Shown here: positions 10,885 to 35,282 of the stretch, one piece after another
Numbering within the stretch: the stretch's first letter is position 1
Layout of the letters: every line of letters begins with the position of its first letter
From: Candidatus Woesearchaeota archaeon
Lineage (GTDB): Archaea > Nanobdellota > Nanobdellia > SCGC-AAA011-G17 > GW2011-AR18
DNA length: 64,000 nucleotides
Reading direction: 5' to 3'
Assembly (NCBI GenBank): GCA_018302105.1
Contig: JAGWAD010000022.1
Span: 13,434 to 77,433 of the forward strand
Position numbers and translations under genes: made by a program
Notes under the pieces: model-generated
The model's database searches: none
Told to the model about the DNA's origin: nothing
Seen by the model: only the letters and a program-made list of their open reading frames with translations

Positions 10885-11577
10885 ATGGAATTGGATAATT
10901 ATATAATTAAGAAAGGAAAAATTCAAGAAGTTCATGAATTAATTAAAGATTTTCATAATAACTTATTTTCTAATGAACATATGCAGGAGGTTCTTTTTAG
11001 AAATACTAGTCTTTCTTACAATAAACCAAATTCATACCATTCGATAAAATCTGCTGTAATTTTGAGAGAGCAAACAAAAATTCACTTGCAGTATTTAGAA
11101 TATTCAATCGATTTAGCAATCAAACCAGGAATTATAGAAGTAAATTTTGATATTGGAAAATTAACAGGAGAACATTTAATTGATGGTTATCCAAGGGAAA
11201 TTATAGAATCGCTTCAAAAAGGTTGGTTTGAAAATTTAAATACGGTTGAAATAATAAGGAAATACCAAAAAAATCTCAACGATGCGTTTAATTCTTTTAA
11301 CATGCAGTTTATTCTTTCTATTTTAAACAGAGCCCCATATGGTTTATTTTTCGATTGTGAAAATTGCAAGGAATTGGGAGACAAAGTTAATTTACTTTTA
11401 GACAGAGCCGAATTTAGGAATGAAGAAGTTAACCCTTTAGAGTCAGTATATTATAATAATGCAGTAAGAAATTTTAGAATTGCAGGTACATACTGGCAAC
11501 AGCTTGATAAAGATTCATATGGAAGAAATTTTAGATTAACAATAGAAGAAGTAATGGGAGGATTAAAAAATAAATAG
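10885..11577 (+). CDS. hypothetical protein
   Basis: 230-aa ORF with no motifs. Confidence 0.4.
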   Translation: MELDNYIIKKGKIQEVHELIKDFHNNLFSNEHMQEVLFRNTSLSYNKPNSYHSIKSAVILREQTKIHLQYLEYSIDLAIKPGIIEVNFDIGKLTGEHLIDGYPREIIESLQKGWFENLNTVEIIRKYQKNLNDAFNSFNMQFILSILNRAPYGLFFDCENCKELGDKVNLLLDRAEFRNEEVNPLESVYYNNAVRNFRIAGTYWQQLDKDSYGRNFRLTIEEVMGGLKNK

Positions 11578-11667
11578 CCCCGGGCAGATTCGAACTGCCG
11601 TCAATGGCTTTCTTTAAGCATTATGCCTACCAAAGGCCACTATCCTTGGCCGCTAGACGACGGGGCT
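11575..11667 (-). tRNA. tRNA-Gln (anticodon TTG) with an intron of about 20 nt in the anticodon loop
   Basis: Acceptor AGCCCCG/CGGGGCT, discriminator A. D-arm is nearly identical to the tRNA-Gln(CTG). Anticodon stem GTGGC/GCCAT with loop CTTTGG interrupted by AGGCATAATGCTTAAAGAAA. T-arm GGCAG-TTCGAAT-CTGCC. Confidence 0.7.
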
Positions 11668-12850: not shown

Positions 12851-13681
12851 ATGAAAAATAAAATATTATTGCTGGCAGGTGCAACTTTAATAGGCCTGGC
12901 CTTTTTTGCAGGCACAAAGTTTACTGAAAATAATATTAAGAAACTCTCAAGAACTGAAGATTCAAGCAGTTTAGAAGAAACAGTATCAAAAATAAAATCT
13001 GATTCTTTTAGTGAAGGTTGTATTGCAAGAGAAATAGAAATTGGAAATTCTATAATTTTATATGAAAAAAATGGTTTTATGGATTTCAGTAAAACTTTAT
13101 CAAAAGAAGGAGGATTAACATTAATTTCTCCAGAAGGAATATCAAATTTCATTAAATATTCAGACCCTGTATGTAATTTAGATCCACAAGAATTATTAAA
13201 ATCTGTCAAAGAAATTGGAGAATTCGGAGTATCTAGAGGCATTAGGATCCATAATGGTGTTGATCTTCCTGCAAAAATTGGTGAACCAGTATGTCCAATA
13301 GATAGAGGATTAGTAATCTATTCAGACAATCTAAGATTAAATGGAGGCAATAGAAATATAGATTATGGAAATACAATTATTATTGTTCATCCACAAAAAG
13401 GAATTACAAGCTTATATGCACATTTGAATGAATTAACTGTAAAGGAAAGTGATTATGTTTTTGCAAATCAGCAAATAGGCGCTGTTGGAATGACTGGAAA
13501 TTTAAGTTTTGCAAAGGGACAATTTAAGTACTCACATTTACATTTTGAATTATTCAAAGGAAATCCTTCAGTAGATGATATAAAAACAAAGTTTTTAGAA
13601 AGATTAAATCCAAGAATGATCTTTGGTTTCATGCAAAATGGGGAAAATATTGAATTATTTAAAAAATTATATGAAAAATAA
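12851..13681 (+). CDS. secreted M23 family (LytM-type) metallopeptidase
   Basis: N-terminal signal/anchor MKNKILLLAGATLIGLAFFAG. M23 motifs HNGVD, YAHL and GxxGxTGN...HLHFE. Confidence 0.8.
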   Translation: MKNKILLLAGATLIGLAFFAGTKFTENNIKKLSRTEDSSSLEETVSKIKSDSFSEGCIAREIEIGNSIILYEKNGFMDFSKTLSKEGGLTLISPEGISNFIKYSDPVCNLDPQELLKSVKEIGEFGVSRGIRIHNGVDLPAKIGEPVCPIDRGLVIYSDNLRLNGGNRNIDYGNTIIIVHPQKGITSLYAHLNELTVKESDYVFANQQIGAVGMTGNLSFAKGQFKYSHLHFELFKGNPSVDDIKTKFLERLNPRMIFGFMQNGENIELFKKLYEK

Positions 13682-23371: not shown

Positions 23372-24076
23372 TCAGTATCTTCCGCCCAAATAAATATTCT
23401 TAATTTTCTTATGTTTTAATATATCTTTGCCGCCAGTTAAAGCAATTTTTCCATCTTCTAGTAAATATGTTCTGTCTGCAATTTGTATTGCTTTTTTTGC
23501 ATTTTGTTCAACAATTAAAATAGTTAATCCCAAATCTCTTAATTTCTCAATTGTTTTAAATAATTCTTTTTGCAATAAAGGACTTAATCCTAAAGACGGT
23601 TCATCTAATAACAATAACTTTGGTTTTTGTATTAATGCCCTTCCAATAGCAAGCATTTGTTGTTGCCCGCCACTTAAAGTAAAAGCTAATTTATTCTTCT
23701 TTTCTTTTAAAACAGGAAACAAATCATAAACATAGTTTATTCGCTGGTCTTTTGTCGCTTTGTCTATATTATCATTCCCAATTTCCAGATTTTCTTTTAC
23801 ACTTAAATTATTAAAATTTATTCTTCCCTGGCTTACATAACTAATTCCTAATTTCATAAGTTCGTAAGTCTTTAATTTTGTTATATTTTTTTCATTAAAT
23901 AAAATTTCTCCACTAGTCACATTAGCAATATTAAATATTGATTTGATTACAGTGCTTTTTCCAGCACCATTCGGGCCAATTAAGGCAATTATTTCTTTTT
24001 CATTAATATTTATATCAATACCTTCCAGTATTTCAAGTCCATTATATCCCGAATGTAAATTTTTTATTTCTAACAT
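23372..24076 (-). CDS. livF: branched-chain amino acid ABC transporter ATP-binding protein LivF
   Basis: Walker A GPNGAGKST, signature LSGGQQQ, Walker B LLLLDEP. Last gene of a five-gene liv operon. Confidence 0.85.
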   Translation of the reverse strand: MLEIKNLHSGYNGLEILEGIDININEKEIIALIGPNGAGKSTVIKSIFNIANVTSGEILFNEKNITKLKTYELMKLGISYVSQGRINFNNLSVKENLEIGNDNIDKATKDQRINYVYDLFPVLKEKKNKLAFTLSGGQQQMLAIGRALIQKPKLLLLDEPSLGLSPLLQKELFKTIEKLRDLGLTILIVEQNAKKAIQIADRTYLLEDGKIALTGGKDILKHKKIKNIYLGGRY

Positions 24077-24077
24077 A

Positions 24078-24809
24078 TTAGTCTCCCAAATAAGCCTCTA
24101 ATACTTTTTTATTGCTCTGTATTTCTGCTGGTTCGCCATGTGCAATTATTTTTCCAGCATCCATTACAAAAATATAATCTGCTAAATCCATTACAAAGTT
24201 CATATCATGTTCTATAAGTAATATTGTCCCTTTATTTTTATTCAGATTTTTAATTATTTCTTTTATTTCTTCTCTTAAAACAGGATTCACTCCAGCAACA
24301 GGTTCATCTAATAATAAAAGTGAATGAGGTTTAGCTATTGCCATTGCCAGATCTAATAATTTTCTTTGCCCATAACTTAAATCAGTAACTAATGTGTTTA
24401 ATGGTTTTTTTAAGTGCACTAATTTTAATATTCTATCAATTCTTTCTGCATTGTTAGGTTTATCCTTAAATAATGACTTGAAAATACTTTCATCAGAATT
24501 AGATAATGAAATTTCTAAATGATCTTTTATTGTTAAATTTCTAAATAATCTTACATCTTGGAAAGTTCTTGAAATTCCAGATTTAGATATTTCATAATCT
24601 TTCAATTTAGTTATATTCTTTCCATTAAAATGAATATGTCCATCATTAGATTTTAATAATTTTGATATTAAATTAAATAAAGTTGTTTTCCCAGATCCAT
24701 TTGGTCCTATAATTGCAGTTATTTTTTCCCTTTCTATTTCTAAACTACAGTCTTTTACAGCATGTATCCCTCCAAATCTTTTTGTTAAGCATTCAATTTT
24801 AAGAATCAT
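24078..24809 (-). CDS. livG: branched-chain amino acid ABC transporter ATP-binding protein LivG
   Basis: GPNGSGKTT, LSYGQRK, LLLLDEP. Confidence 0.85.
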   Translation of the reverse strand: MILKIECLTKRFGGIHAVKDCSLEIEREKITAIIGPNGSGKTTLFNLISKLLKSNDGHIHFNGKNITKLKDYEISKSGISRTFQDVRLFRNLTIKDHLEISLSNSDESIFKSLFKDKPNNAERIDRILKLVHLKKPLNTLVTDLSYGQRKLLDLAMAIAKPHSLLLLDEPVAGVNPVLREEIKEIIKNLNKNKGTILLIEHDMNFVMDLADYIFVMDAGKIIAHGEPAEIQSNKKVLEAYLGD

Positions 24810-25678
24810 TCCAAGTCAATCCTCCCAAACAGTCCTTTTGGTTTAAACAATAAAATTCCAATTAATATTAATGCATATATTATCTGCCTTGTTGGCCCAA
24901 GAACATGGCTCGGAATAGCAAAAAATCTTAATAACTCAGGAATTATAAATAAAATAAAAGTTGCGATTATGCTTCCTTTAAAAGATGCAATTCCTCCAAC
25001 TATAACAATTGTAAATATAAAAATAATACTATTTAACATAAAAGATGTAGGATCAATATAACCATTATAATGAGCAAATAAACTTCCAGCTAGACCAGCA
25101 AATAAAGAAGAGATTATCATTGCTTTATATTTTATTTTAATTGTATTTTTTCCTAAAACTCTTAATCCCAATTCATCATCTCTCGTTGCATGCAATAGCC
25201 TTCCAAAAGGAGACTTAATTATGGCATACATTATCATGCATGAAATTATAGCTATGAAAATAACAAATAGTAAGAATTCAAAATTAGATTTTAAAAAATA
25301 TCCAAAAATATTTGGTCTGCTTATCCCAGAAATTCCTAAGGGTCCATTGGTTATTGAACTTAAATTAAGCATTAAAGAATAGATTAAAAAACTAAATCCT
25401 AAAGTTGCTAAAGCTAAATAATCTCCTTTCAACCTTTTAGTTATCCATACTAATAAAAATCCAAAACACCCGGCAATTATACATGATATAATTAAAGCCA
25501 ATATAAAAGGAATTCCTTCTCTTGTTAAAATTGCAGAAGTATAAGCACCAATACCAAAAAATGCAATATGTCCCAAATTTAATAATCCTGTATATCCTAA
25601 GGCAATGTTTAAACTTACAGCTAATATAATATAAATTCCAATTAATATTAGTATATGGATTAAATAATTTTCTATCAT
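24806..25678 (-). CDS. livM: branched-chain amino acid ABC transporter permease LivM
   Basis: Polytopic permease with stop/start overlap to both neighbouring genes. Confidence 0.75.
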   Translation of the reverse strand: MIENYLIHILILIGIYIILAVSLNIALGYTGLLNLGHIAFFGIGAYTSAILTREGIPFILALIISCIIAGCFGFLLVWITKRLKGDYLALATLGFSFLIYSLMLNLSSITNGPLGISGISRPNIFGYFLKSNFEFLLFVIFIAIISCMIMYAIIKSPFGRLLHATRDDELGLRVLGKNTIKIKYKAMIISSLFAGLAGSLFAHYNGYIDPTSFMLNSIIFIFTIVIVGGIASFKGSIIATFILFIIPELLRFFAIPSHVLGPTRQIIYALILIGILLFKPKGLFGRIDLE

Positions 25679-26550
25679 TTTTTAATCCCCTTGTTAATTC
25701 CTAAAATTCCATGTGGTTTGAATAATAAAAATAAGAATAATAATGTAAATGCTATTGCATCTTTATATCCTGATGACAAATACCAAATTCCAAAATTTTC
25801 AGCAATTCCTAAGATATAACTGCCAAGTATAGAACCAGGAACTGAAGTTATTCCTCCAATAATTGATCCTGTAAATCCTTTAACTATTAAATTCGTTCCT
25901 ATGGTTGGCTCTAATGTTTGTTCTAAAGCAATGAATATTCCAGCTATACCCGCTAATAAAGAGCCAATAAAAAATGAATAATATGAAACTTTTTTATAGT
26001 CTATACCAATAATGCTTGCCAATTCCTTATTATCAGAAACAGCACGCATATTTCTTCCGATTTTTGTTTTCTTCATTAAAAGATATAACAATAACAATAA
26101 TATTAGGGATGTAACAATTATTATAATCTGCAATGGAGTAATAATAAAACTTGAAAATTCTATGCTTTTTGTTAAATCACTATTTATTGTTTTTACAGTA
26201 GTTCCAAAAACCAGCATAATCATATTTTCAAATAATATTAGTATTCCAACAGAAGCTATAAGTAAAACTATATTTGAAGATTTTCTTTTTTGCAATGGTC
26301 CATAAAATACTTTATACATAAAAATCCCAAATAATCCAGTTAATATTAAAACCAATAATATTGAAATAATAAAATTTATTTTTAATGTGTTTAAACTTAA
26401 ATAAAATAAATAAGAAGCAATAACAACACTTATTCCATGTGCAAAATGCATAAATTTATTTGTAGAATAAATTAAAGAAAATCCGCATGCAACTAAAGCA
26501 TACAAACTTCCTATAATCAAGGAATTTACAATTATTTGTATTAATGCCAT
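25675..26550 (-). CDS. livH: branched-chain amino acid ABC transporter permease LivH
   Basis: Polytopic permease, first permease gene of the liv operon. Confidence 0.75.
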   Translation of the reverse strand: MALIQIIVNSLIIGSLYALVACGFSLIYSTNKFMHFAHGISVVIASYLFYLSLNTLKINFIISILLVLILTGLFGIFMYKVFYGPLQKRKSSNIVLLIASVGILILFENMIMLVFGTTVKTINSDLTKSIEFSSFIITPLQIIIIVTSLILLLLLYLLMKKTKIGRNMRAVSDNKELASIIGIDYKKVSYYSFFIGSLLAGIAGIFIALEQTLEPTIGTNLIVKGFTGSIIGGITSVPGSILGSYILGIAENFGIWYLSSGYKDAIAFTLLFLFLLFKPHGILGINKGIKK

Positions 26551-26701
26551 TATTGCAAATCTCCTGCTGTATCAACAAAAAATTTTTGCCTTTTTATTCT
26601 GATTTCTAAACTTTCTGTTCTCATATTTCTGATAATATCTTTTCTAATGTATCTGGAAAAACCCCATTTTAACCCTACAAAAAAATAAAAAAATTAAATT
26701 T

Positions 26702-27823
26702 TTATCTATATACTGATTTTTTACTTCTTACAACTTTTACATCATAAGCAACTTGTTTTAAGTCTCCAACACTGTCAAATTCTATTTTACTAGTTGATAC
26801 ACCATTTATTGAAGTTTGTTTTAAAGCTTCTTTTATTCCAGCTTTATTTGTACTTCCAGTGTTCTTAATTGCTTCAGTCATTACTCTTAATGCATCATAT
26901 GCTAATGGTGCAGCAATTGCAACTTCCAAATTTTCAAAGCCTTTCACGTTCTTTATTTTAGCCTTAAAATCTTCAGGTGAATTTACGCGAGCAACTAAAT
27001 ATATTGTATCTTCTGCATAATCACTTTTAAAAAATTCTTCACCATCAAAAGCATCTCCACCTATAACTGGAATATTTAAGTTCATTTCTTTTATCTGTTT
27101 TAAAGCAGATACCCCGCCAGCAGGATAAACTGGTAAATATAAAGCTTCTGCTCCGCTTTCTTTAACTTTAGTTATCAAAGTTTTGAAATCCTTATCAGTT
27201 TGTAAAACTCCATCTTCATATATTACTTCTCCACCCAATTGCCTGAATGTTGGAGCAAATACATTTTTTATTCCTTCTCCCCAATCATTCTTTACATAAA
27301 CTATAGCTATTTTTTTCTTGCCTAAAGTGTTATATATAAAATTAGCAGCTTCTTTTCCTTGGAAGCTATCTGAAGGATAAACTCTAAAAATATATTCTCC
27401 TTCTGTTAATTTAGGTGCTGAAGCAGCAACTATTACTACTGGTACTCCGTTGCTTTCTGCTATTGGCAATGCTGGACCGCCAGAAGCAGAACAAATTGGA
27501 CCAATTACTCCAGTAACTTGATCAACATTAATTAATTTTTGAATAGCACTCACACTATCAGCTGAACATTTGTCATCTTCAGCAACTAACTCTATTTTTC
27601 TTCCGCCAATTCCACCTTGTGAATTAATTTCATTAGCAGCAAGTGTTGCACCAGCTAGCGAGTTTTGACCCCAGGAAGCAGCTTCTCCAGTTAAAGGCAA
27701 TAATAATCCTAATTTAATAGGTTCACTGCTCTGTGAATTTGAGTTCCCATTATTCTGTGAGCTGCAAGCCCCAATAAGAACAATTAATATAAATAATGCT
27801 AAAAATATTTTAACTTTTTGCAT
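26702..27823 (-). CDS. livK: branched-chain amino acid ABC transporter substrate-binding lipoprotein (LivK/LivJ type)
   Basis: Signal peptide with lipobox LIGAC. Periplasmic binding protein fold (PLTGEAASWGQ...). Confidence 0.8.
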   Translation of the reverse strand: MQKVKIFLALFILIVLIGACSSQNNGNSNSQSSEPIKLGLLLPLTGEAASWGQNSLAGATLAANEINSQGGIGGRKIELVAEDDKCSADSVSAIQKLINVDQVTGVIGPICSASGGPALPIAESNGVPVVIVAASAPKLTEGEYIFRVYPSDSFQGKEAANFIYNTLGKKKIAIVYVKNDWGEGIKNVFAPTFRQLGGEVIYEDGVLQTDKDFKTLITKVKESGAEALYLPVYPAGGVSALKQIKEMNLNIPVIGGDAFDGEEFFKSDYAEDTIYLVARVNSPEDFKAKIKNVKGFENLEVAIAAPLAYDALRVMTEAIKNTGSTNKAGIKEALKQTSINGVSTSKIEFDSVGDLKQVAYDVKVVRSKKSVYR

Positions 27824-27962
27824 AGTCTAATCCCCCATGTTTAATTTCTATAATCTTCTTATGGAATCTGATCAATTAGAATAAATATATATTTTATTAT
27901 TAAATACTATATATGTATATTAATATATAGATAAAGTAGAAATATTTATATATTTGTAAGTT

Positions 27963-28877
27963 TTGCTAATTTTAATGAAAAGAAAAATTGTAAAATTAGG
28001 TCCGGCAACATTAGTTATAAGTCTCCCGAATAAATGGGTTAGAAAATTCAATATAGTAGCAGGAAATGAACTTGAAGTAGTAGAAGAAGAAAAAGGATTA
28101 ATAATCAAAACAGAAAGCAATTTTAAAACAGAAAAAGAATTCTTGGATTTTACAAAAATAAATAAATTGCTGAAAAGAATATTAGCTTCTAAGTACACAA
28201 AAGGAACAGACGAGATAGAGATAAAAATAGATTCTCTGGAAAAATCAAGAATAATACAAAAAAGAGTTGATGAAATGATTGGAATGGAAGTTATTGAGCA
28301 AAGCAAAGATAGATTATTAATAAAAGATATTCAGGGAACAAATATAGAAAATTTTGATAATATATTAAGAAGGGTTTTATATTTAATAAACTCACTATCA
28401 GAAGAAAGTTTAAAATCAATATCTAAAAAAGAAACAGACTTAGAATATTTGCAGGATATAGAAAAAAATATTAATAAATTCACAGATTATTGCTTTAGGA
28501 TTCTAAACAAAAAAGGATATGCAAATTATAAAAATACATCAGCAATGTATTGTATAATCTATTTACTTGAAGATTTGGCAGATGAATATAAAAATTTAAT
28601 ATCTTATATTAATGAAAATAAAATAAAGTTAAATAACGAATTAATTTTAATTTACTCAAAGATTGATGATTATTATAAAAATTTACAAAAATTATTCTTA
28701 AAATTTGATTTAGAAGATGCTGTAAACTTAGCCGATTATAGAGACAAAATAATAATTTTTACTTCTAAACAACTAAAAAATACAAAATCAGCAAATGAAG
28801 CAATAATAATAAAGAATTTTGAAAGAATAATAAAAATAATTATTGATATAATGGACCAATTATTAAAAACGAATTAG
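27963..28877 (+). CDS. AbrB/SpoVT-type DNA-binding domain fused to a PhoU-like helical domain, putative regulator
   Basis: N-terminus KIVKLGPATLVISLPNKWVRKFNI..GNELEV is a swapped-hairpin AbrB-like barrel. The remainder is helical and PhoU-like. Confidence 0.5.
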   Translation: MLILMKRKIVKLGPATLVISLPNKWVRKFNIVAGNELEVVEEEKGLIIKTESNFKTEKEFLDFTKINKLLKRILASKYTKGTDEIEIKIDSLEKSRIIQKRVDEMIGMEVIEQSKDRLLIKDIQGTNIENFDNILRRVLYLINSLSEESLKSISKKETDLEYLQDIEKNINKFTDYCFRILNKKGYANYKNTSAMYCIIYLLEDLADEYKNLISYINENKIKLNNELILIYSKIDDYYKNLQKLFLKFDLEDAVNLADYRDKIIIFTSKQLKNTKSANEAIIIKNFERIIKIIIDIMDQLLKTN

Positions 28878-28879
28878 TA

Positions 28880-30874
28880 TTATGGTTTTGTTAAAAAAAT
28901 TGAACAAAACCCACCATCAAAACCGAAACCTGTACCGTTGATAACATTATGCACTAAAATTTTTACATCATCCCTAATTTTATCATATGGATTTTTATAT
29001 ATATCACCATAAAAAGATGTAGATTCAGTAATTGAAATATAAAAATCTGTTAAAGCCTTTGATCTATCACCATTATATTCTTTTAGTTTATCTGATAATA
29101 TTCTAGCGCCAAATTTTAAATTTTCCAAAGGATCCATAGTTCTGCCACCTTTGTTATTATAATTTGGATTAGGCAATAAGAAATTAATATCAGATATTGA
29201 AATAAATTCTTCCTTTGCACTAAAATCTATTCCAGCGTAAATCCTGTTTACTCTTATAATCTGTCTTAATAATTGGGCTTCTAATCCATATTCTGCTGCA
29301 ACATCATCAATTACTTTATTATCTATTTTAAATCTAGAATTTAATGTTCCTTCTGCAGCTTGTCTTGTGGCTAATTCATAGATTCTTCTAAAATTATGAT
29401 TATAACTATCTAAACTTAAATCAGCTAACTTTTCCATGTTTATAGCTTCTTTTCTTTCTCTCTCTTTTAAATATTCATTATACTTCAATCCGCCAACTGT
29501 TACACAAGCTAAAAACGCAATTGCAGCAGGAACAGAAATTTTTTTTAATGTTCTTTTTCTTTTGCTATTCTTTATCTTTTTTTCTAAATTTGTTATTATT
29601 TCATAAGAATTGGAACTTTCTGAGTTTATTACAGGTTCAATAATGTTAGTTTGTGATGCTTGTATTTTTGGATTATATTCAGTTTTTAGTTCTTCATAAG
29701 TTAAGCTTTCTTTTGTATAAGTATCTGGCAAAGACAATTTTTTCTTAAATTCCTCTTTTATAATTCCAGATTGAATTGCATAGTCTAATCTTATCATTGC
29801 CTCTTCAAAAAATAGTGAAGACATTTTATTAAGTTTTTTCCAGTTGTCTGAATCATGCGATCTTTTTAAGTATCTTTTAGCAGCCAATAAATTTTCAAGT
29901 ACCTGATTTTTAATATGCAATCTAGATGATAATTCTCTTTCTTCAATATTGTCATAAAATTTTCTTGCAGCCATTCTTGCAATTTCATTTTCTTCTTCTA
30001 ATTTTAAGTCAGATTTCATCAATAATTTGTCAATATCATATTCAAATAAACCATTAGAAGAACTATTCGCCCAATCAATATATACTTTACCATAAGATGT
30101 AAGCAGAATATTTCCAGGATGTAAATCTCCATGTATGTTATATTTAGCCCCAGAATCTAAGTCTCTTCCAATTTCTTCTTCAAATAATCTTAATAATTCT
30201 TCATTGCCTTTAATTTGACCATTCAAATAATATTTTAAAAATGCTAAATGGGATTTACCCATTCTTTTAGGAATTTTTAGGTTATTGTCATTTCTATTTA
30301 AGTGAGAGAACAATCTAACATAATCACTTACAACATCTGAAACTATATCAAACTTATCTTCAGTTTTCTCCAGTCTTTCAAAAAGTGTTGCACCATCAAT
30401 AAAAGGAGAAATAATTATTCTTCTTCTTGAATTAATAAATTTAATTTCTGGAACTGATGAGCCAAAATCTGAACCAAGTTCTTTATATATCTGTGATTGG
30501 ACATTGACAGCATGCTTTAAATCTTCTTTTTTGGAAAATTTTTTTATAAAATTTCTTATTTCTACACTATTTGTTAGTTTCAAGACTGCTTCTGCTACAT
30601 ATCCATCACTTTCTATTGTATTTTTGGTTATGCTGTTTATTATATTGACTGTAGGAGATAATACTTCAGTACCCCTTTGATTAACAATATCTTCTAGTTT
30701 TCTAAGTTCTTGTAAGCTGATTTCTCCTCTTTTAGTTAATCTCTCAATATTTGACAGTATTACGTCAATTAAATAAGATTCATAACTATTTCCTAATAAT
30801 TCTCTCAATGATAAATTTACTCCTTGACCCATATAATATTTACAAGAACAACCTTTATAAATCTTTCTAATCAT
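28880..30874 (-). CDS. kinase-like domain / single TM / SLT-like (lytic transglycosylase) domain fusion protein
   Basis: IHGDLHPGNILL plus YIDWA (APH/choline-kinase-type catalytic loop and metal-binding residues). Hydrophobic ISVPAAIAFLACVTVGGL segment. C-terminal region VAAEYGLEAQLLRQII...DPLENLKFGARILSDKLKEYNGDRSKALTDFY resembles an SLT domain. Confidence 0.55.
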   Translation of the reverse strand: MIRKIYKGCSCKYYMGQGVNLSLRELLGNSYESYLIDVILSNIERLTKRGEISLQELRKLEDIVNQRGTEVLSPTVNIINSITKNTIESDGYVAEAVLKLTNSVEIRNFIKKFSKKEDLKHAVNVQSQIYKELGSDFGSSVPEIKFINSRRRIIISPFIDGATLFERLEKTEDKFDIVSDVVSDYVRLFSHLNRNDNNLKIPKRMGKSHLAFLKYYLNGQIKGNEELLRLFEEEIGRDLDSGAKYNIHGDLHPGNILLTSYGKVYIDWANSSSNGLFEYDIDKLLMKSDLKLEEENEIARMAARKFYDNIEERELSSRLHIKNQVLENLLAAKRYLKRSHDSDNWKKLNKMSSLFFEEAMIRLDYAIQSGIIKEEFKKKLSLPDTYTKESLTYEELKTEYNPKIQASQTNIIEPVINSESSNSYEIITNLEKKIKNSKRKRTLKKISVPAAIAFLACVTVGGLKYNEYLKERERKEAINMEKLADLSLDSYNHNFRRIYELATRQAAEGTLNSRFKIDNKVIDDVAAEYGLEAQLLRQIIRVNRIYAGIDFSAKEEFISISDINFLLPNPNYNNKGGRTMDPLENLKFGARILSDKLKEYNGDRSKALTDFYISITESTSFYGDIYKNPYDKIRDDVKILVHNVINGTGFGFDGGFCSIFLTKP

Positions 30875-33336: not shown

Positions 33337-33660
33337 TTGCAGATTTATATGCAGGAAATAACAGATTCTACATTTGAAAAAGAAGTTCTTAATTCAGATA
33401 AACCTGTAGTTTTAGATGCATGGGCTCCTTGGTGCGCCCCTTGTTTGGGTATGGCTCCAATATTCGAAGAATTAAGCAAAGAAATGAAAAATGTAAAATT
33501 TGTTAAGATGAATGTTGATGAAAATCAGGAAACACCAAGTAAATATTTTGTCCAGAGCATTCCAACATTTTTAATTTTCAAAAATGGAAAATTAATTGCT
33601 AATATAGTTGGAGGAAGACCAAAATCTGTTTTTAAATCTGAGATTGAGAAAGCATTATAA
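33337..33660 (+). CDS. trxA: thioredoxin
   Basis: WAPWCAPC active site (CAPC variant of CGPC) and cis-Pro IPTFLIF. 107 aa. Confidence 0.85.
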   Translation: MQIYMQEITDSTFEKEVLNSDKPVVLDAWAPWCAPCLGMAPIFEELSKEMKNVKFVKMNVDENQETPSKYFVQSIPTFLIFKNGKLIANIVGGRPKSVFKSEIEKAL

Positions 33661-33719: not shown

Positions 33720-35282
33720 ATGGATTTAAGAAATATTACTAAGGCTTTTGTAGGTTATGGATTATTGACAGCATTTGGAACTTATTTTATATTAGATAAA
33801 TTCGATAATCCAAAAAAAAGCGTTAATAAAGTTGAAATAGCAGAGGAAGTAGAAAGGAAAAAAGAAGCAGCAAAAGAAGATTATTTTGAATTTCTAAGAA
33901 CTAGACAAGATGGTGCAGATGTTTTCAAATATAAAATTGAAGGAGAAAAAAATTTAGACGAAATTGCAATTAAGTTTAATCAGGTAGATTCTTTAGCATT
34001 TGGAGACAAATATGCTGAAGTAAGTTCAACTAATCTGGTGCATTCTGATGGAAAAAGTTACATTGAAGACTTAGATGATAAAAATTCTATCTATTTACTA
34101 GCAAGAAAAAGTGAGTCTGTAATTGTTACTAAAAAATTAAATAGTGAAAACGGGCAATTTTTTGCAATTTTGACAAATAATGATGATTTAGAAGAAAGAC
34201 ATATAAAAAATATTAAAATAGCTTATAAATTATTAAGATCAAAAAAGATAGATCCATGTAATCTTTATGTTGTATCTGGTCCAAATCAAAATACAGAATG
34301 TAAATTAGATTTTCCAGTTAATCAAGCTCCAGCAAAACAAGGAATTTTAAATGCTATTCAGTCTATAAAAGAGAGAGCAACATCTAAAGATTCTTTGCTT
34401 GTCTATATAACTGGTCATGGTTCTAAAGGAGAAATTAAATTTGAAAATGAAAATGGTTTGTCTTATGCGAAATTTAGGAGATTAATTGAAGAGCTAAATT
34501 TAAATCTAGTTATTGCTTTTTCAGATCAATGTTATGGTGGAGGAATTGTAAAAGAATTTAAAAAAAGTGAACATCGAACAATTTCTTTCTCCCCAACATA
34601 TACAGAAGACCTTACACAATGTCACTTATTTACTCCAAATTTGTGGGAGATTCTTGGCCATAACCTATTTGATATTAACAAAGATAGTAAAACATCTGTA
34701 AAAGAAGCATTTATTTTAGCATATGGAATATATAAGACAGCTATACGTAATCCAAATATTATAAGTAAACCGCCTTCTAGAGAAAGGCTTTCTGAATTAT
34801 CTAAAAATTTAATTAGTAGAGAAACTACAGTTAATTTATTGGAAGATTCAGAGATTGAATATGATGGGTTAATTGCAACAACTGGAAATATTGAAGATAC
34901 TACAATTGATGGAAAAATTTTAGGTAATAAAAATAAAAATTCATTAGTATTGGAATTAGATTATAACAACTATGAAACTAATGTTTTAAATTCAAAATTA
35001 CCAGTTATTGTGGATATTTATACAAAATGGTGCACTTTCTGTAAAGTATTAGGAAAGGATCTGCCTAAAATTGCTTCTAAATATGATAGCAAAGTAAAAT
35101 TTACAAAAATTGATTATGAATCTGAACGTGCAGCAGAAATAATAAAGAGTCATACCAAGGAAGTTGTAAATGGTTTTCCTAGGATATTATTTGTAAAAGA
35201 TAAGCAAATAATTTATGCCCAAGATGGATATAGTGAAAGTGCTGATCTGGAAGCAAAAATAAAAGAGGAGTTTGGATTATAA
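33720..35282 (+). CDS. membrane-anchored caspase-like (clan CD, C14/C13-type) peptidase domain fused to a C-terminal thioredoxin-fold domain
   Basis: N-terminal TM helix. YITGHGSKGE (His) and FSDQCYGGG (Cys) about 40 residues apart, as in caspase/metacaspase dyads. C-terminal YTKWCTFCKVLG (CxxC) with cis-Pro GFPRILF. Confidence 0.55.
   Translation: MDLRNITKAFVGYGLLTAFGTYFILDKFDNPKKSVNKVEIAEEVERKKEAAKEDYFEFLRTRQDGADVFKYKIEGEKNLDEIAIKFNQVDSLAFGDKYAEVSSTNLVHSDGKSYIEDLDDKNSIYLLARKSESVIVTKKLNSENGQFFAILTNNDDLEERHIKNIKIAYKLLRSKKIDPCNLYVVSGPNQNTECKLDFPVNQAPAKQGILNAIQSIKERATSKDSLLVYITGHGSKGEIKFENENGLSYAKFRRLIEELNLNLVIAFSDQCYGGGIVKEFKKSEHRTISFSPTYTEDLTQCHLFTPNLWEILGHNLFDINKDSKTSVKEAFILAYGIYKTAIRNPNIISKPPSRERLSELSKNLISRETTVNLLEDSEIEYDGLIATTGNIEDTTIDGKILGNKNKNSLVLELDYNNYETNVLNSKLPVIVDIYTKWCTFCKVLGKDLPKIASKYDSKVKFTKIDYESERAAEIIKSHTKEVVNGFPRILFVKDKQIIYAQDGYSESADLEAKIKEEFGL

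What the first reader, a model, noticed from the sequence alone, without database searches (positions are those of the whole stretch)
28880..30874. Single protein combining a cytoplasmic kinase-like domain, a TM helix and an SLT-like lytic transglycosylase domain
The N-terminal roughly 330 aa carry an aminoglycoside/choline-kinase-type catalytic core (IHGDLHPGNILL, YIDWA). A single hydrophobic helix follows (about residue 455). The C-terminal roughly 200 aa resemble SLT/lytic transglycosylase domains (AAEYGLEAQLLRQII ... DPLENLKFGARILSDKLKEYNGDRSKALTDFY). However, the usual catalytic Glu-Ser position reads RVNRIY, so the domain may be a glycan-binding sensor rather than an enzyme. This layout is the inverse analogue of PknB-PASTA receptor kinases. 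It is unexpected in an archaeon, which lacks murein. It might sense or cleave the cell wall of a host or partner. An AbrB/PhoU-like regulator is encoded convergently next to it.
Basis: partly seen in the sequence, partly recalled or inferred. Interest (0 to 1): 0.6.

Follow-up and report, generated by a model that had tools for sequence, protein, structure and literature searches.

The report
Archaeal membrane kinase with wall-sensor domain
A tiny symbiotic-type archaeon (Woesearchaeota) encodes a membrane protein with an intact kinase inside the cell and, outside, a copy of a bacterial-cell-wall-cutting enzyme that has lost its cutting residue; this looks like a previously undescribed receptor for sensing cell-wall sugars.

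Summary
The ORF at 28880-30874(-) encodes three parts:
- a cytoplasmic APH/choline-kinase-fold kinase with intact catalytic residues (K111, D250, N255, D267);
- one N-in/C-out membrane helix (446-463);
- a 181-aa extracellular domain (484-664) that is a remote GH23/SLT homologue.

In that outer domain Asn543 occupies the catalytic Glu position. None of 47 family members has Glu or Asp there.

The protein is not an orphan. It belongs to an unnamed family of about 76 representatives at 50% identity, and every taxonomically labelled full-length member is DPANN (Woesearchaeota, Nanoarchaeia). Some members carry a classical Hanks Ser/Thr kinase in place of the APH-like kinase, with the same outer domain and in the same genomic locus. 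That swap argues for a signalling protein-kinase role.

In 10 of 10 loci examined, a roughly 300-aa SpoVT/AbrB protein is encoded tail-to-tail next to the kinase gene. In 5 loci a LivK-type ABC importer follows.

My best reading is a receptor kinase whose catalytically dead transglycosylase domain binds, rather than cleaves, a murein-like glycan. It would be a functional analogue of PASTA kinases and plant LysM receptor kinases.

The ligand, the kinase substrate and the link to the AbrB protein are all inferred, not shown. SLT domains in Woese- and Pacearchaeota were already known; this fusion does not appear in the papers I searched. I rate it a new variant of a known kind, interest about 0.62.

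The parts
28880..30874 (-). Whole ORF, 664 aa. The probable real start is Met15, at 30830-30832, which gives 650 aa.
   Evidence: One search lists the ORF. Met15 is a near-invariant column in the 55-sequence alignment. The NCBI copy MBS3174944.1 is 650 aa. A TTTATAAA element lies about 25-28 nt upstream of the Met15 ATG, which is only tentative in a 26% GC genome.
29675..30817 (-). Cytoplasmic APH/choline-kinase-fold kinase domain (residues ~20-400).
   Evidence: Pfam APH 25.8 bits, above the gathering score of 23.2. AF2 pLDDT above 90. Foldseek on solved structures gives choline kinases, LicA, MTR kinase and APHs at E=6e-8 to 1e-5.
30542..30544 (-). Lys111, the predicted ATP-binding lysine.
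   Evidence: K in 50 of 55 family sequences.
30110..30133 (-). Catalytic loop HGDLHPGN (His248-Asn255), with catalytic Asp250 and Asn255.
   Evidence: D250 in 53 of 55 and N255 in 51 of 55 sequences. Coordinates.
30071..30076 (-). Asp267-Trp268, the metal-binding Asp (DFG equivalent).
   Evidence: D267 in 55 of 55 sequences.
29645..29677 (-). Conserved juxtamembrane motif YNPxxxx(S/T)QEN (residues 400-410) at the start of a low-confidence linker. Ser407 is a candidate autophosphorylation site; this is inference.
   Evidence: P402 in 49 of 55, Ser or Thr at 407 in 46 of 55, and Q/E/N at 408/409/410 in 35-37 of 55 sequences. pLDDT is below 50 over residues 407-421.
29486..29539 (-). Single membrane-spanning helix (residues 446-463), N-in/C-out.
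   Evidence: Kyte-Doolittle 1.78; flanks carry 9 K/R on the N side against 5 K/R and 4 D/E on the C side. The charge bias holds in 47 of 47 family members.
28883..29425 (-). Extracellular GH23/SLT-like domain without a catalytic acid (residues 484-664).
   Evidence: Family profile against PDB: MltC E=4.5e-6. AF2 pLDDT 89.7, pTM 0.88. Foldseek top hits are GH23 enzymes. hhalign against four E. coli SLT domains: E=2.5e-4, probability 43%.
29246..29248 (-). Asn543, at the position of the SLT catalytic Glu (MltC E217; Slt70 E505 in precursor numbering).
   Evidence: Alignments. Column composition is N39 S3 H2 T1 V1 Y1, with no E or D in 47 sequences. E. coli Glu positions were checked.
27975..28877 (+). 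Convergent partner gene: a roughly 300-aa protein with an N-terminal SpoVT/AbrB DNA-binding domain. It ends 2 nt from the kinase gene's stop codon.
   Evidence: Pfam MazE_antitoxin 30.8 bits, above 24.7. A homologue sits tail-to-tail with the kinase gene in 10 of 10 loci.
23372..27823 (-). LivK-type ABC importer: binding protein 26702-27823, permeases 25675-26550 and 24806-25678, ATPases 24078-24809 and 23372-24076. It follows the AbrB gene in 5 of the loci.
   Evidence: Pfam families listed per gene. The same arrangement occurs in L007, L009, L012 and L019.

Best explanation
This is a single-pass receptor kinase of a Woesearchaeota (DPANN) archaeon.

Shown:
- The N-terminal ~400 residues form an APH/choline-kinase-fold kinase with all catalytic residues conserved.
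- One helix crosses the membrane with the kinase on the cytoplasmic side.
- The outer 181 residues form a lysozyme-like GH23/SLT domain in which the single catalytic Glu is replaced by Asn throughout the family.

Inferred:
- The outer domain has become a binding module for a GlcNAc/MurNAc-type glycan. Candidates are bacterial murein or fragments of it, possibly pseudomurein or chitin-like chains from a host or neighbour.
- Ligand binding changes the activity of the cytoplasmic kinase.
- The kinase acts as a protein kinase, autophosphorylating (candidate site Ser407 in the conserved juxtamembrane motif) and/or phosphorylating a target.
- The best candidate target is the invariably adjacent SpoVT/AbrB-type regulator, which may in turn control the neighbouring LivK-type nutrient importer.
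For: Architecture and topology:
- establish the domains and the N-in/C-out orientation.

The kinase looks active:
- K111 is present in 50 of 55 sequences, D250 in 53, N255 in 51 and D267 in all 55.
- Fold matches to choline kinase and APH structures reach E=6e-8.

The outer domain is SLT-like:
- The family profile hits MltC at E=4.5e-6 and a phage LT domain at E=0.005.
- 10 of 30 members give sub-threshold Pfam SLT hits, and no other Pfam family recurs in more than 2 of the 30.
- Foldseek top hits are almost all GH23, in both PDB (probability 0.94) and BFVD (probability 1.00, E=4e-3).

The outer domain is catalytically dead:
- N543 aligns to MltC E217 and Slt70 E505.
- No E or D occurs in that column in 47 sequences.
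- GLMQ is replaced by VN(I/L)LDP. The window copy also lacks the family's Asp567.

It behaves as a signalling module:
- The same outer domain, membrane helix, convergent AbrB gene and ABC importer occur with a Pfam Pkinase (Hanks) domain in place of the APH-like kinase (P0054 in L012, P0068 in L019).
- Standalone membrane-helix-plus-domain paralogues lie beside kinase genes (L013, L020).

Partner gene:
- The AbrB gene is tail-to-tail with the kinase gene in 10 of 10 loci, while kinase identity falls to 22-33%.

Other context:
- An exported M23 peptidase lies on the same contig.
- Published work proposes that Woesearchaeota interact with bacterial walls through SLT proteins (PMC8204110, PMC9723730).
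Against: - No ligand, substrate or activity has been measured.
- Structural similarity of the outer domain to GH23 is weak in absolute terms. No Foldseek hit reaches E<=1e-3, TM is about 0.4, and hhalign probability is 43%.
- Pfam SLT stays below its curated threshold.
- The closest structures to the kinase domain are small-molecule kinases, not protein kinases.
- The AbrB gene is convergent, so it is not co-transcribed with the kinase gene. Conserved adjacency does not prove a kinase-substrate relation.
- The window copy departs from the family consensus at five well-conserved outer-domain positions (D567L, R592I, L596K, P614S, Y642H). It may therefore bind differently or more weakly than typical members.
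- Woesearchaeota hosts are unknown.
Confidence: 0.55

Rival explanations
1. Membrane-anchored small-molecule kinase. The APH/choline-kinase-fold domain phosphorylates a metabolite or lipid head group, for example a scavenged amino sugar (as the APH-family kinases AmgK and NahK do) or choline/ethanolamine. The outer domain only positions the enzyme or captures the glycan source.
For: The best structural matches are all small-molecule kinases: choline kinases, LicA, MTR kinase, homoserine kinase II and APHs. The Pfam family matched is APH. From general knowledge, AmgK and NahK are APH-family sugar 1-kinases acting on MurNAc/GlcNAc, which would fit a murein-type outer domain. DPANN archaea depend on scavenging.
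Against: In orthologous loci the same outer domain, AbrB neighbour and importer are combined with a Hanks-type Ser/Thr protein kinase instead. That is hard to reconcile with a specific metabolite kinase. A conserved Ser/Thr-containing juxtamembrane motif and the receptor-like single-pass layout also fit signalling better. No sugar kinase appeared among the top 50 Foldseek hits.
Confidence: 0.2
2. Adhesin or anchor. The dead transglycosylase domain simply tethers the archaeal cell to a host cell wall, and the kinase domain has a separate housekeeping role that the outer domain does not regulate.
For: The outer domain lacks catalytic residues but keeps the fold. Standalone membrane-anchored copies without any kinase exist (P0056, P0072, L020 ORFs). 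The literature proposes attachment roles for DPANN SLT proteins (PMC8204110).
Against: Fusion to a kinase has been maintained or re-created with two different kinase families. A long continuous helix links the membrane helix to the outer domain. Both features are typical of signal transmission rather than an accidental fusion.
Confidence: 0.12
3. Active cell-wall-cleaving enzyme with a non-canonical catalytic residue, used to attack a bacterial host, as the first reader suggested as an alternative.
For: Most family members carry a conserved Asp (D567, 39 of 47) in the segment that replaces GLMQ. Woesearchaeota are proposed to degrade murein with SLT proteins (PMC9723730). An M23 peptidase lies on the same contig.
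Against: The canonical Glu is absent in all 47 members. The window protein also has Leu at position 567. From established knowledge, GH23 enzymes rely on that single Glu as the acid/base catalyst.
Confidence: 0.08
4. The SLT resemblance is chance, and the C-terminal part is an unrelated helical domain.
For: Pfam SLT is below threshold. Foldseek E-values are 4e-3 to 0.1 with TM about 0.4. hhalign probability is only 43%.
Against: Three independent approaches converge on GH23 and place the same residue on the catalytic Glu: profile against PDB sequences (E=4.5e-6), structure search in two libraries, and profile-profile comparison. NCBI's pipeline names one family member a 'lytic transglycosylase domain-containing protein'.
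Confidence: 0.05

Closest known systems
PASTA-domain receptor Ser/Thr kinases of Gram-positive bacteria (PknB, PrkC, StkP)
   Same: Single-pass membrane protein with the kinase inside and a peptidoglycan-related domain outside. The presumed logic is the same: wall-derived ligand to cytoplasmic phosphorylation. A conserved juxtamembrane segment is present.
   Different: The kinase here has the APH/choline-kinase fold, not the Hanks type, although sister proteins in the same locus do carry a Hanks kinase. The outer domain is a Glu-less GH23 fold, not PASTA repeats. The host organism is an archaeon without murein of its own, so the ligand would be foreign.
Plant LysM receptor kinases (CERK1/LYK type)
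   Same: A receptor kinase that uses a domain borrowed from cell-wall-degrading enzymes to sense foreign GlcNAc-containing glycans (chitin, peptidoglycan) from other organisms.
   Different: The binding fold differs (LysM versus lysozyme-like GH23), as do the kinase family and the domain of life. No co-receptor is known here.
Family 1 lytic transglycosylases / GH23 (E. coli Slt70, MltC, MltE, MltD; Pfam SLT PF01464)
   Same: Remote sequence and fold similarity. The shared DPxxN(I/L)xxG helix motif and an aromatic residue at the AYN position are retained.
   Different: The catalytic Glu-Ser is replaced by Asn-Arg/Lys, and GLMQ by VN(I/L)LDP. There is an extra N-terminal stalk helix and a C-terminal beta-hairpin (DGG). 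The score is below the Pfam gathering threshold. The domain is fused to a kinase.
Large extracellular SLT-domain proteins of Woese- and Pacearchaeota (fam00969 in PMC8204110; GH23 genes in PMC9723730)
   Same: Same lineage and same superfamily of outer domain. The same proposed theme: interaction with bacterial cell walls.
   Different: Those proteins are up to 3,000 aa, are described as putative enzymes or adhesins, and are not reported with kinase domains. The family described here is 650-850 aa, kinase-linked and lacks the catalytic Glu.
APH/choline kinase family (Pfam PF01636: choline kinase, LicA, MTR kinase, aminoglycoside phosphotransferases; also the APH-fold protein kinase SrkA/YihE)
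   Same: Same fold, HxDxxxxN catalytic loop, metal-binding Asp and ATP-binding Lys. There is a weak NCBIfam hit to the SrkA-type 'serine/threonine protein kinase' model (E=0.0067, far below its cut-off).
   Different: The protein is membrane-tethered with an extracellular domain. It has an N-terminal helical extension. Its substrate is unknown.

Membership tests
APH / choline kinase family (Pfam PF01636) | Profile match above the curated threshold | tested here: met
   25.8 bits against a gathering score of 23.2, E=1.1e-5, residues 183-285. This is marginal.
APH / choline kinase family (Pfam PF01636) | Catalytic loop HxDxxxxN, downstream metal-binding Asp and ATP-binding Lys | tested here: met
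   H248-G-D250-L-H-P-G-N255, D267 and K111 are present. Family conservation is 53/55, 51/55, 55/55 and 50/55 for D250, N255, D267 and K111.
APH / choline kinase family (Pfam PF01636) | Bilobal kinase fold with the helical C-lobe of small-molecule kinases | tested here: met
   AF2 pLDDT above 90 over residues ~20-400. Foldseek: 3c5i choline kinase E=6.4e-8, LicA, MTR kinase and APH(2''), with TM on target 0.5-0.65.
APH / choline kinase family (Pfam PF01636) | Phosphorylates a small-molecule hydroxyl group | not testable with these tools
   This needs enzyme assays. The Hanks-kinase replacement in orthologous loci argues against it.
GH23 / SLT lytic transglycosylases (Pfam PF01464) | Profile match above the curated threshold | tested here: not met
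   14.7-16.9 bits against 21.3. Only profile positions 61-91 of 117 are matched. 10 of 30 family members give sub-threshold hits.
GH23 / SLT lytic transglycosylases (Pfam PF01464) | Homology to solved SLT domains detectable with a family profile | tested here: met
   hmmsearch of profile A1 against PDB: MltC 9vi7_A E=4.5e-6, phage tape-measure LT domain 9b45_a E=0.005, E. coli MltC E=0.046. hhalign against four E. coli SLT domains: E=2.5e-4, probability 43%.
GH23 / SLT lytic transglycosylases (Pfam PF01464) | Lysozyme-like alpha-helical fold | tested here: inconclusive
GH23 / SLT lytic transglycosylases (Pfam PF01464) | Catalytic Glu at the end of the helix (E-S motif) | tested here: not met
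   Asn543-Arg544 occupy those positions. The column holds N39 S3 H2 T1 V1 Y1, with no E or D.
GH23 / SLT lytic transglycosylases (Pfam PF01464) | GLMQ and AYNxG motifs | tested here: not met
   GLMQ corresponds to VN(I/L)LDP in the family and INFLLP in the window copy. AYNxG corresponds to (D/E)FYxP, so only the aromatic residue is kept.
GH23 / SLT lytic transglycosylases (Pfam PF01464) | Cleaves the MurNAc-GlcNAc bond | not testable with these tools
   A zymogram or muropeptide analysis is needed.
PASTA-type receptor Ser/Thr kinases | Hanks-type catalytic domain | tested here: not met
   The window protein gives no Pkinase hit. Sister proteins P0050, P0054 and P0068 do have HRDxKPxN and Pfam Pkinase.
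PASTA-type receptor Ser/Thr kinases | Single membrane helix with the kinase cytoplasmic | tested here: met
   by hydrophobicity and the positive-inside rule. No experimental topology is available.
PASTA-type receptor Ser/Thr kinases | Extracellular PASTA repeats | tested here: not met
   No PASTA hit at E<=1. The outer domain is GH23-like.
SpoVT/AbrB DNA-binding proteins (neighbour gene 27975-28877) | Swapped-hairpin SpoVT/AbrB domain profile match | tested here: met
   Pfam MazE_antitoxin 30.8 bits against 24.7, residues 15-51. The same hit is found in the orthologues.
PhoU (neighbour gene, C-terminal ~250 aa) | PhoU profile match | tested here: not met
   No PhoU family is listed at E<=1 in Pfam or NCBIfam, and there is no PhoU structure among the PDB profile hits.

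The most novel reading that the evidence does not exclude
Woese- and Pacearchaeota-type DPANN archaea possess a lineage-specific pathway for sensing foreign cell walls. A receptor kinase detects murein or pseudomurein of a host or neighbour through a catalytically dead lytic transglycosylase domain. It phosphorylates the always-adjacent AbrB-type regulator and thereby switches on nutrient import (the LivK-type ABC system) or attachment functions. This would be the first described receptor for host recognition in DPANN archaea, and the first case of a GH23 pseudoenzyme used as a kinase sensor domain.
Probability: 0.2. Interest if true: 0.8.

Novelty: new variant of a known kind. Interest (0 to 1): 0.62.

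Why it matters
How ultrasmall DPANN archaea recognise and respond to their hosts is an open question. They mostly lack two-component systems, and almost nothing is known about how they signal.

This family offers a concrete, testable candidate:
- a conserved membrane receptor with an intact kinase;
- an outer domain derived from a bacterial-wall enzyme that has lost catalysis;
- a fixed genomic partner that is a DNA-binding protein.

The locus also shows two unrelated kinase types used interchangeably on the same sensor, a clear natural example of modular receptor evolution. It would add GH23 to the list of enzyme folds recycled as non-catalytic sensors.

The ectodomain and kinase domain are small and should be expressible. 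Binding and phosphorylation assays are therefore feasible even though the organisms are uncultivated.

Tried and rejected
Searches that gave nothing or failed:
- The word-indexed protein search found only the protein itself. It found nothing for the C-terminal domain alone and nothing for the 30-sequence domain alignment. The family became visible only through the exhaustive HMMER search.
- With alignment A2 it returned only 3 full-length loci from reference genomes. From metagenomes it returned 1 full-length locus plus 3 truncated family fragments on short contigs. The other 2 and 4 hits were short kinase-only matches.

Ideas I rejected:
- RIO, Bud32 or Kdo-type kinase, suggested by the HGDLHxxNIL motif. 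Pfam and NCBIfam list none of these families, and no RIO or Bud32 appears in the top 50 fold hits. ABC1/UbiB appears only far below its cut-offs. The APH/choline-kinase structures are the best fold matches.
- PhoU identity for the neighbour's C-terminal part. There is no sequence support.
- A second copy of the domain in the window. An HMM scan of all ORFs found none.
- An orphan or artefact ORF. The identical protein occurs on 24 contigs from several groundwater metagenomes, and the family has 76 representatives.

Literature:
- Searches found no description of a kinase-SLT fusion.
Full report
**1. What is in the sequence**

The window has about 26% G+C and carries archaeal markers including GINS51, SRP54/FtsY and a 5S rRNA.

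The identical protein is found on 24 contigs from several groundwater metagenomes. NCBI holds a 650-aa version, MBS3174944.1, labelled 'hypothetical protein [Candidatus Woesearchaeota archaeon]'.

That version starts at Met15. So do the relatives: Met15 is a near-invariant column in a 55-sequence alignment. A TTTATAAA element lies about 25-28 nt upstream of that ATG. The real gene probably spans 28880-30832. The TATA argument is weak in so AT-rich a genome.

**2. The kinase part**

- Pfam APH is just above its curated threshold (25.8 vs 23.2 bits).
- An AlphaFold2 model built on 55 family sequences is confident over residues ~20-400 (pLDDT mostly above 90).
- Its best matches among solved structures are choline kinases, LicA, 5-methylthioribose kinase, homoserine kinase II and aminoglycoside/macrolide phosphotransferases (E=6e-8 to 1e-5, TM on target 0.5-0.65).
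- The catalytic set is present and conserved across the family: Lys111 in 50/55, Asp250 in 53/55, Asn255 in 51/55 and Asp267 in 55/55.

The domain therefore has the APH/choline-kinase fold and should be catalytically competent. The fold extends to about residue 400 rather than 330.

**3. The membrane helix**

Residues 446-463 are the only strongly hydrophobic stretch (Kyte-Doolittle 1.78). It is flanked by 9 K/R on the kinase side against 5 K/R and 4 D/E on the other.

Across 47 family members the kinase-side flank is the more positive one in every case. Mean K+R is 6.0 against 2.8, and mean D+E is 0.9 against 3.0. With no N-terminal signal sequence and an ATP-dependent domain at the N-terminus, an N-in/C-out topology is the only sensible reading. 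This is a prediction, not a measurement.

**4. The C-terminal domain**

On its own the window sequence gives only a sub-threshold Pfam SLT hit (14.7 bits against 21.3). A profile of 30 family members (alignment A1) gives much more:
- It hits a solved MltC at E=4.5e-6, the lytic transglycosylase domain of a phage tape-measure protein at E=0.005, and E. coli MltC at E=0.046.
- 10 of the 30 members give sub-threshold SLT hits, and no other Pfam family recurs in more than 2 of the 30.
- An AF2 model of residues 484-664 is confident (pLDDT 89.7, pTM 0.88).
- In Foldseek it retrieves almost nothing but GH23 proteins: Slt, LtgA, MltC/D/E, phage T7 ejectosome and core proteins, and goose-type lysozymes in PDB (best E=0.095, probability 0.94, TM 0.41), and phage LT_GEWL/SLT proteins in BFVD (best E=4e-3, probability 1.00).
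- A profile-profile comparison with the SLT domains of E. coli Slt70, MltC, MltD and MltE gives E=2.5e-4 but only 43% probability.

No single score is strong. All approaches converge on the same superfamily and the same register, so I accept remote homology to GH23/SLT. One family member is already labelled 'lytic transglycosylase domain-containing protein' by NCBI.

**5. The missing catalytic residue**

In both HMMER alignments and in hhalign, Asn543 falls on the catalytic Glu and Arg544 on the following Ser. The Glu in question is MltC E217, which is Gln in the 4cfo/4cfp/4chx chain sequence and is the counterpart of the E64Q mutation in the inactive MltE entries listed. It corresponds to Slt70 E505 in precursor numbering and MltE E64.

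In 47 family domains that column reads N39, S3, H2, T1, V1, Y1, and never Glu or Asp. GLMQ is replaced by VN(I/L)LDP. The DPxxN(L/I)xxG helix motif and an aromatic residue at the AYN position are kept.

GH23 enzymes depend on that single Glu as acid/base catalyst (established knowledge). The family as a whole therefore looks like a pseudoenzyme. The conserved Asn suggests the site is still used, most simply for binding.

The window copy additionally lacks five otherwise well-conserved family residues (D567L, R592I, L596K, P614S, Y642H). That removes the only plausible substitute acid and hints at altered or relaxed ligand binding in this particular organism.

**6. It is a family, and the family is informative**

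The word-indexed searches failed. The exhaustive HMMER search found 76 cluster representatives, 39 of them below E=1e-30, and many are colinear over the full length. Local iteration shows that 48 carry the outer domain.

All labelled full-length members are DPANN: Woesearchaeota, Nanoarchaeia, Nanoarchaeota and archaeon GW2011_AR4.

Three representatives (P0050, P0054, P0068) have a classical Hanks-type Ser/Thr kinase (HRDxKPxN; Pfam Pkinase on record for P0054 and P0068) followed by a membrane helix and the same outer domain. Others are just membrane helix plus domain (P0056, P0072) and sit directly beside a kinase gene.

The two Hanks-type loci examined (P0054 in L012, P0068 in L019) share the neighbourhood of the window gene. 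The kinase module has therefore been exchanged while the sensor and its context stayed. This is my main argument that the APH-like domain acts as a signalling (protein) kinase rather than a metabolite kinase. It is an inference.

**7. The constant neighbour**

A roughly 300-aa protein with an N-terminal SpoVT/AbrB domain (Pfam MazE_antitoxin, 30.8 against 24.7 bits) is encoded tail-to-tail with the kinase gene. The 3' ends lie within a few bases of each other or overlap.

This holds in all 10 loci where the downstream region is available: the window, L007, L008, L009, L012, L013, L019, L020, L021 and L022. Kinase identity in these loci falls to 22-33%, while the neighbour stays at 27-58%.

A LivK-type binding protein with two permeases and two ATPases follows in five of the loci.

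The 'PhoU-like' label for the neighbour finds no sequence support. Convergent genes are not co-transcribed, so the functional link (substrate or regulator) is a hypothesis resting on conserved adjacency alone.

**8. Further detail**

Between the kinase and the membrane helix lies a low-confidence linker that begins with a conserved motif, (Y/F)NPxxxx(S/T)QEN. Pro402 is present in 49/55 sequences and Ser or Thr at 407 in 46/55.

A conserved hydroxyl residue in a disordered juxtamembrane segment is what one expects of an autophosphorylation site. A comparable case has been described for PrkC (bioRxiv 10.1101/2025.11.01.686061, seen; abstract only). This is speculation.

**9. Mechanism**

Most likely (about 0.55) this is a receptor kinase whose dead GH23 domain binds a GlcNAc/MurNAc-type glycan outside the cell and controls a cytoplasmic kinase. 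The AbrB protein is a candidate target.

Rivals:
- a membrane-anchored small-molecule kinase (about 0.2; favoured by the fold matches, disfavoured by the Hanks swap);
- a pure adhesin or anchor (about 0.12);
- an active enzyme with a non-canonical acid (about 0.08; disfavoured for this copy by Leu567);
- chance resemblance (about 0.05).

**10. Relation to what is known**

In function, the closest parallels are the PASTA kinases of Gram-positive bacteria and plant LysM receptor kinases. The topology is the same as PknB, not its inverse.

It is not a member of either group, because the kinase family and sensor fold both differ. It passes the tests for the APH/choline-kinase family. It fails the defining catalytic tests for SLT enzymes while being homologous to them.

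SLT-type domains in Woese- and Pacearchaeota are already in the literature as very large extracellular proteins proposed to bind or degrade bacterial walls (PMC8204110, PMC9723730).

I found no paper describing a kinase-linked, Glu-less version. The library searched is not exhaustive.

**11. Verdict**

I classify it as a new variant of a known kind: a cell-wall-type receptor kinase with a new sensor fold, a new kinase type and a new lineage. Interest is 0.62, because it gives a concrete and experimentally approachable handle on signalling and possibly host sensing in DPANN archaea. Ligand, substrate and pathway remain inferred.

Noticed in passing
window 12851-13681 (+): A 276-aa protein with an N-terminal hydrophobic anchor or signal and a Pfam Peptidase_M23 domain (E=2.5e-21). 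The HxxxD and HxH metal-binding motifs are present. This is a second murein-hydrolase-type protein in an archaeon that should have no murein, and it fits the idea of interaction with bacterial walls.
   Followed up: partly
window 33720-35282 (+): A 520-aa protein with an N-terminal hydrophobic segment, a weak legumain-like Peptidase_C13 match (E=1e-4, just below threshold) and a C-terminal thioredoxin domain. It lies next to a separate thioredoxin gene (33337-33660). This is an unusual exported protease-thioredoxin combination.
   Followed up: no
window 30830-30874 (-): The first 14 codons of the ORF (MIRKIYKGCSCKYY) are probably not translated. Relatives and the NCBI copy start at Met15, and a TTTATAAA box lies inside these codons, about 25-28 nt before the Met15 ATG, which would suit a leaderless archaeal mRNA.
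   Followed up: partly
window 28883-29425 (-), residues 567, 592, 596, 614, 642: The window's outer domain departs from its own family consensus at five well-conserved positions: D567L, R592I, L596K, P614S and Y642H. The reason is unexplained. It could reflect changed ligand specificity or relaxed constraint in this population.
   Followed up: partly
L020 908-7952; L013 3884-7790: In some relatives the system is duplicated in tandem. L020 reads kinase+domain (715 aa), standalone anchored domain (321 aa), kinase+domain (732 aa), standalone domain (278 aa), then the convergent AbrB gene. The standalone copies might act as co-receptors or decoys.
   Followed up: partly
window 11575-11667 (-): ARAGORN calls a 93-nt tRNA-Pro(TGG) that the Rfam tRNA model did not report at its gathering score. 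The extra length suggests an intron, as is common in archaeal tRNAs.
   Followed up: no
window 27920-28306 (-): A 128-aa ORF lies entirely antisense to the conserved AbrB-type gene. It is probably a shadow ORF of the AT-rich sequence rather than a gene.
   Followed up: no
family-wide: About 29 of the 77 sequences analysed (76 hits plus the window protein) have the APH-like kinase, and where full length a membrane helix, but no detectable copy of the SLT-like domain. Some of these are fragments. Full-length examples include P0033, P0058 and P0061. They may carry other outer domains. L021 (P0058) still has the convergent AbrB neighbour.
   Followed up: partly
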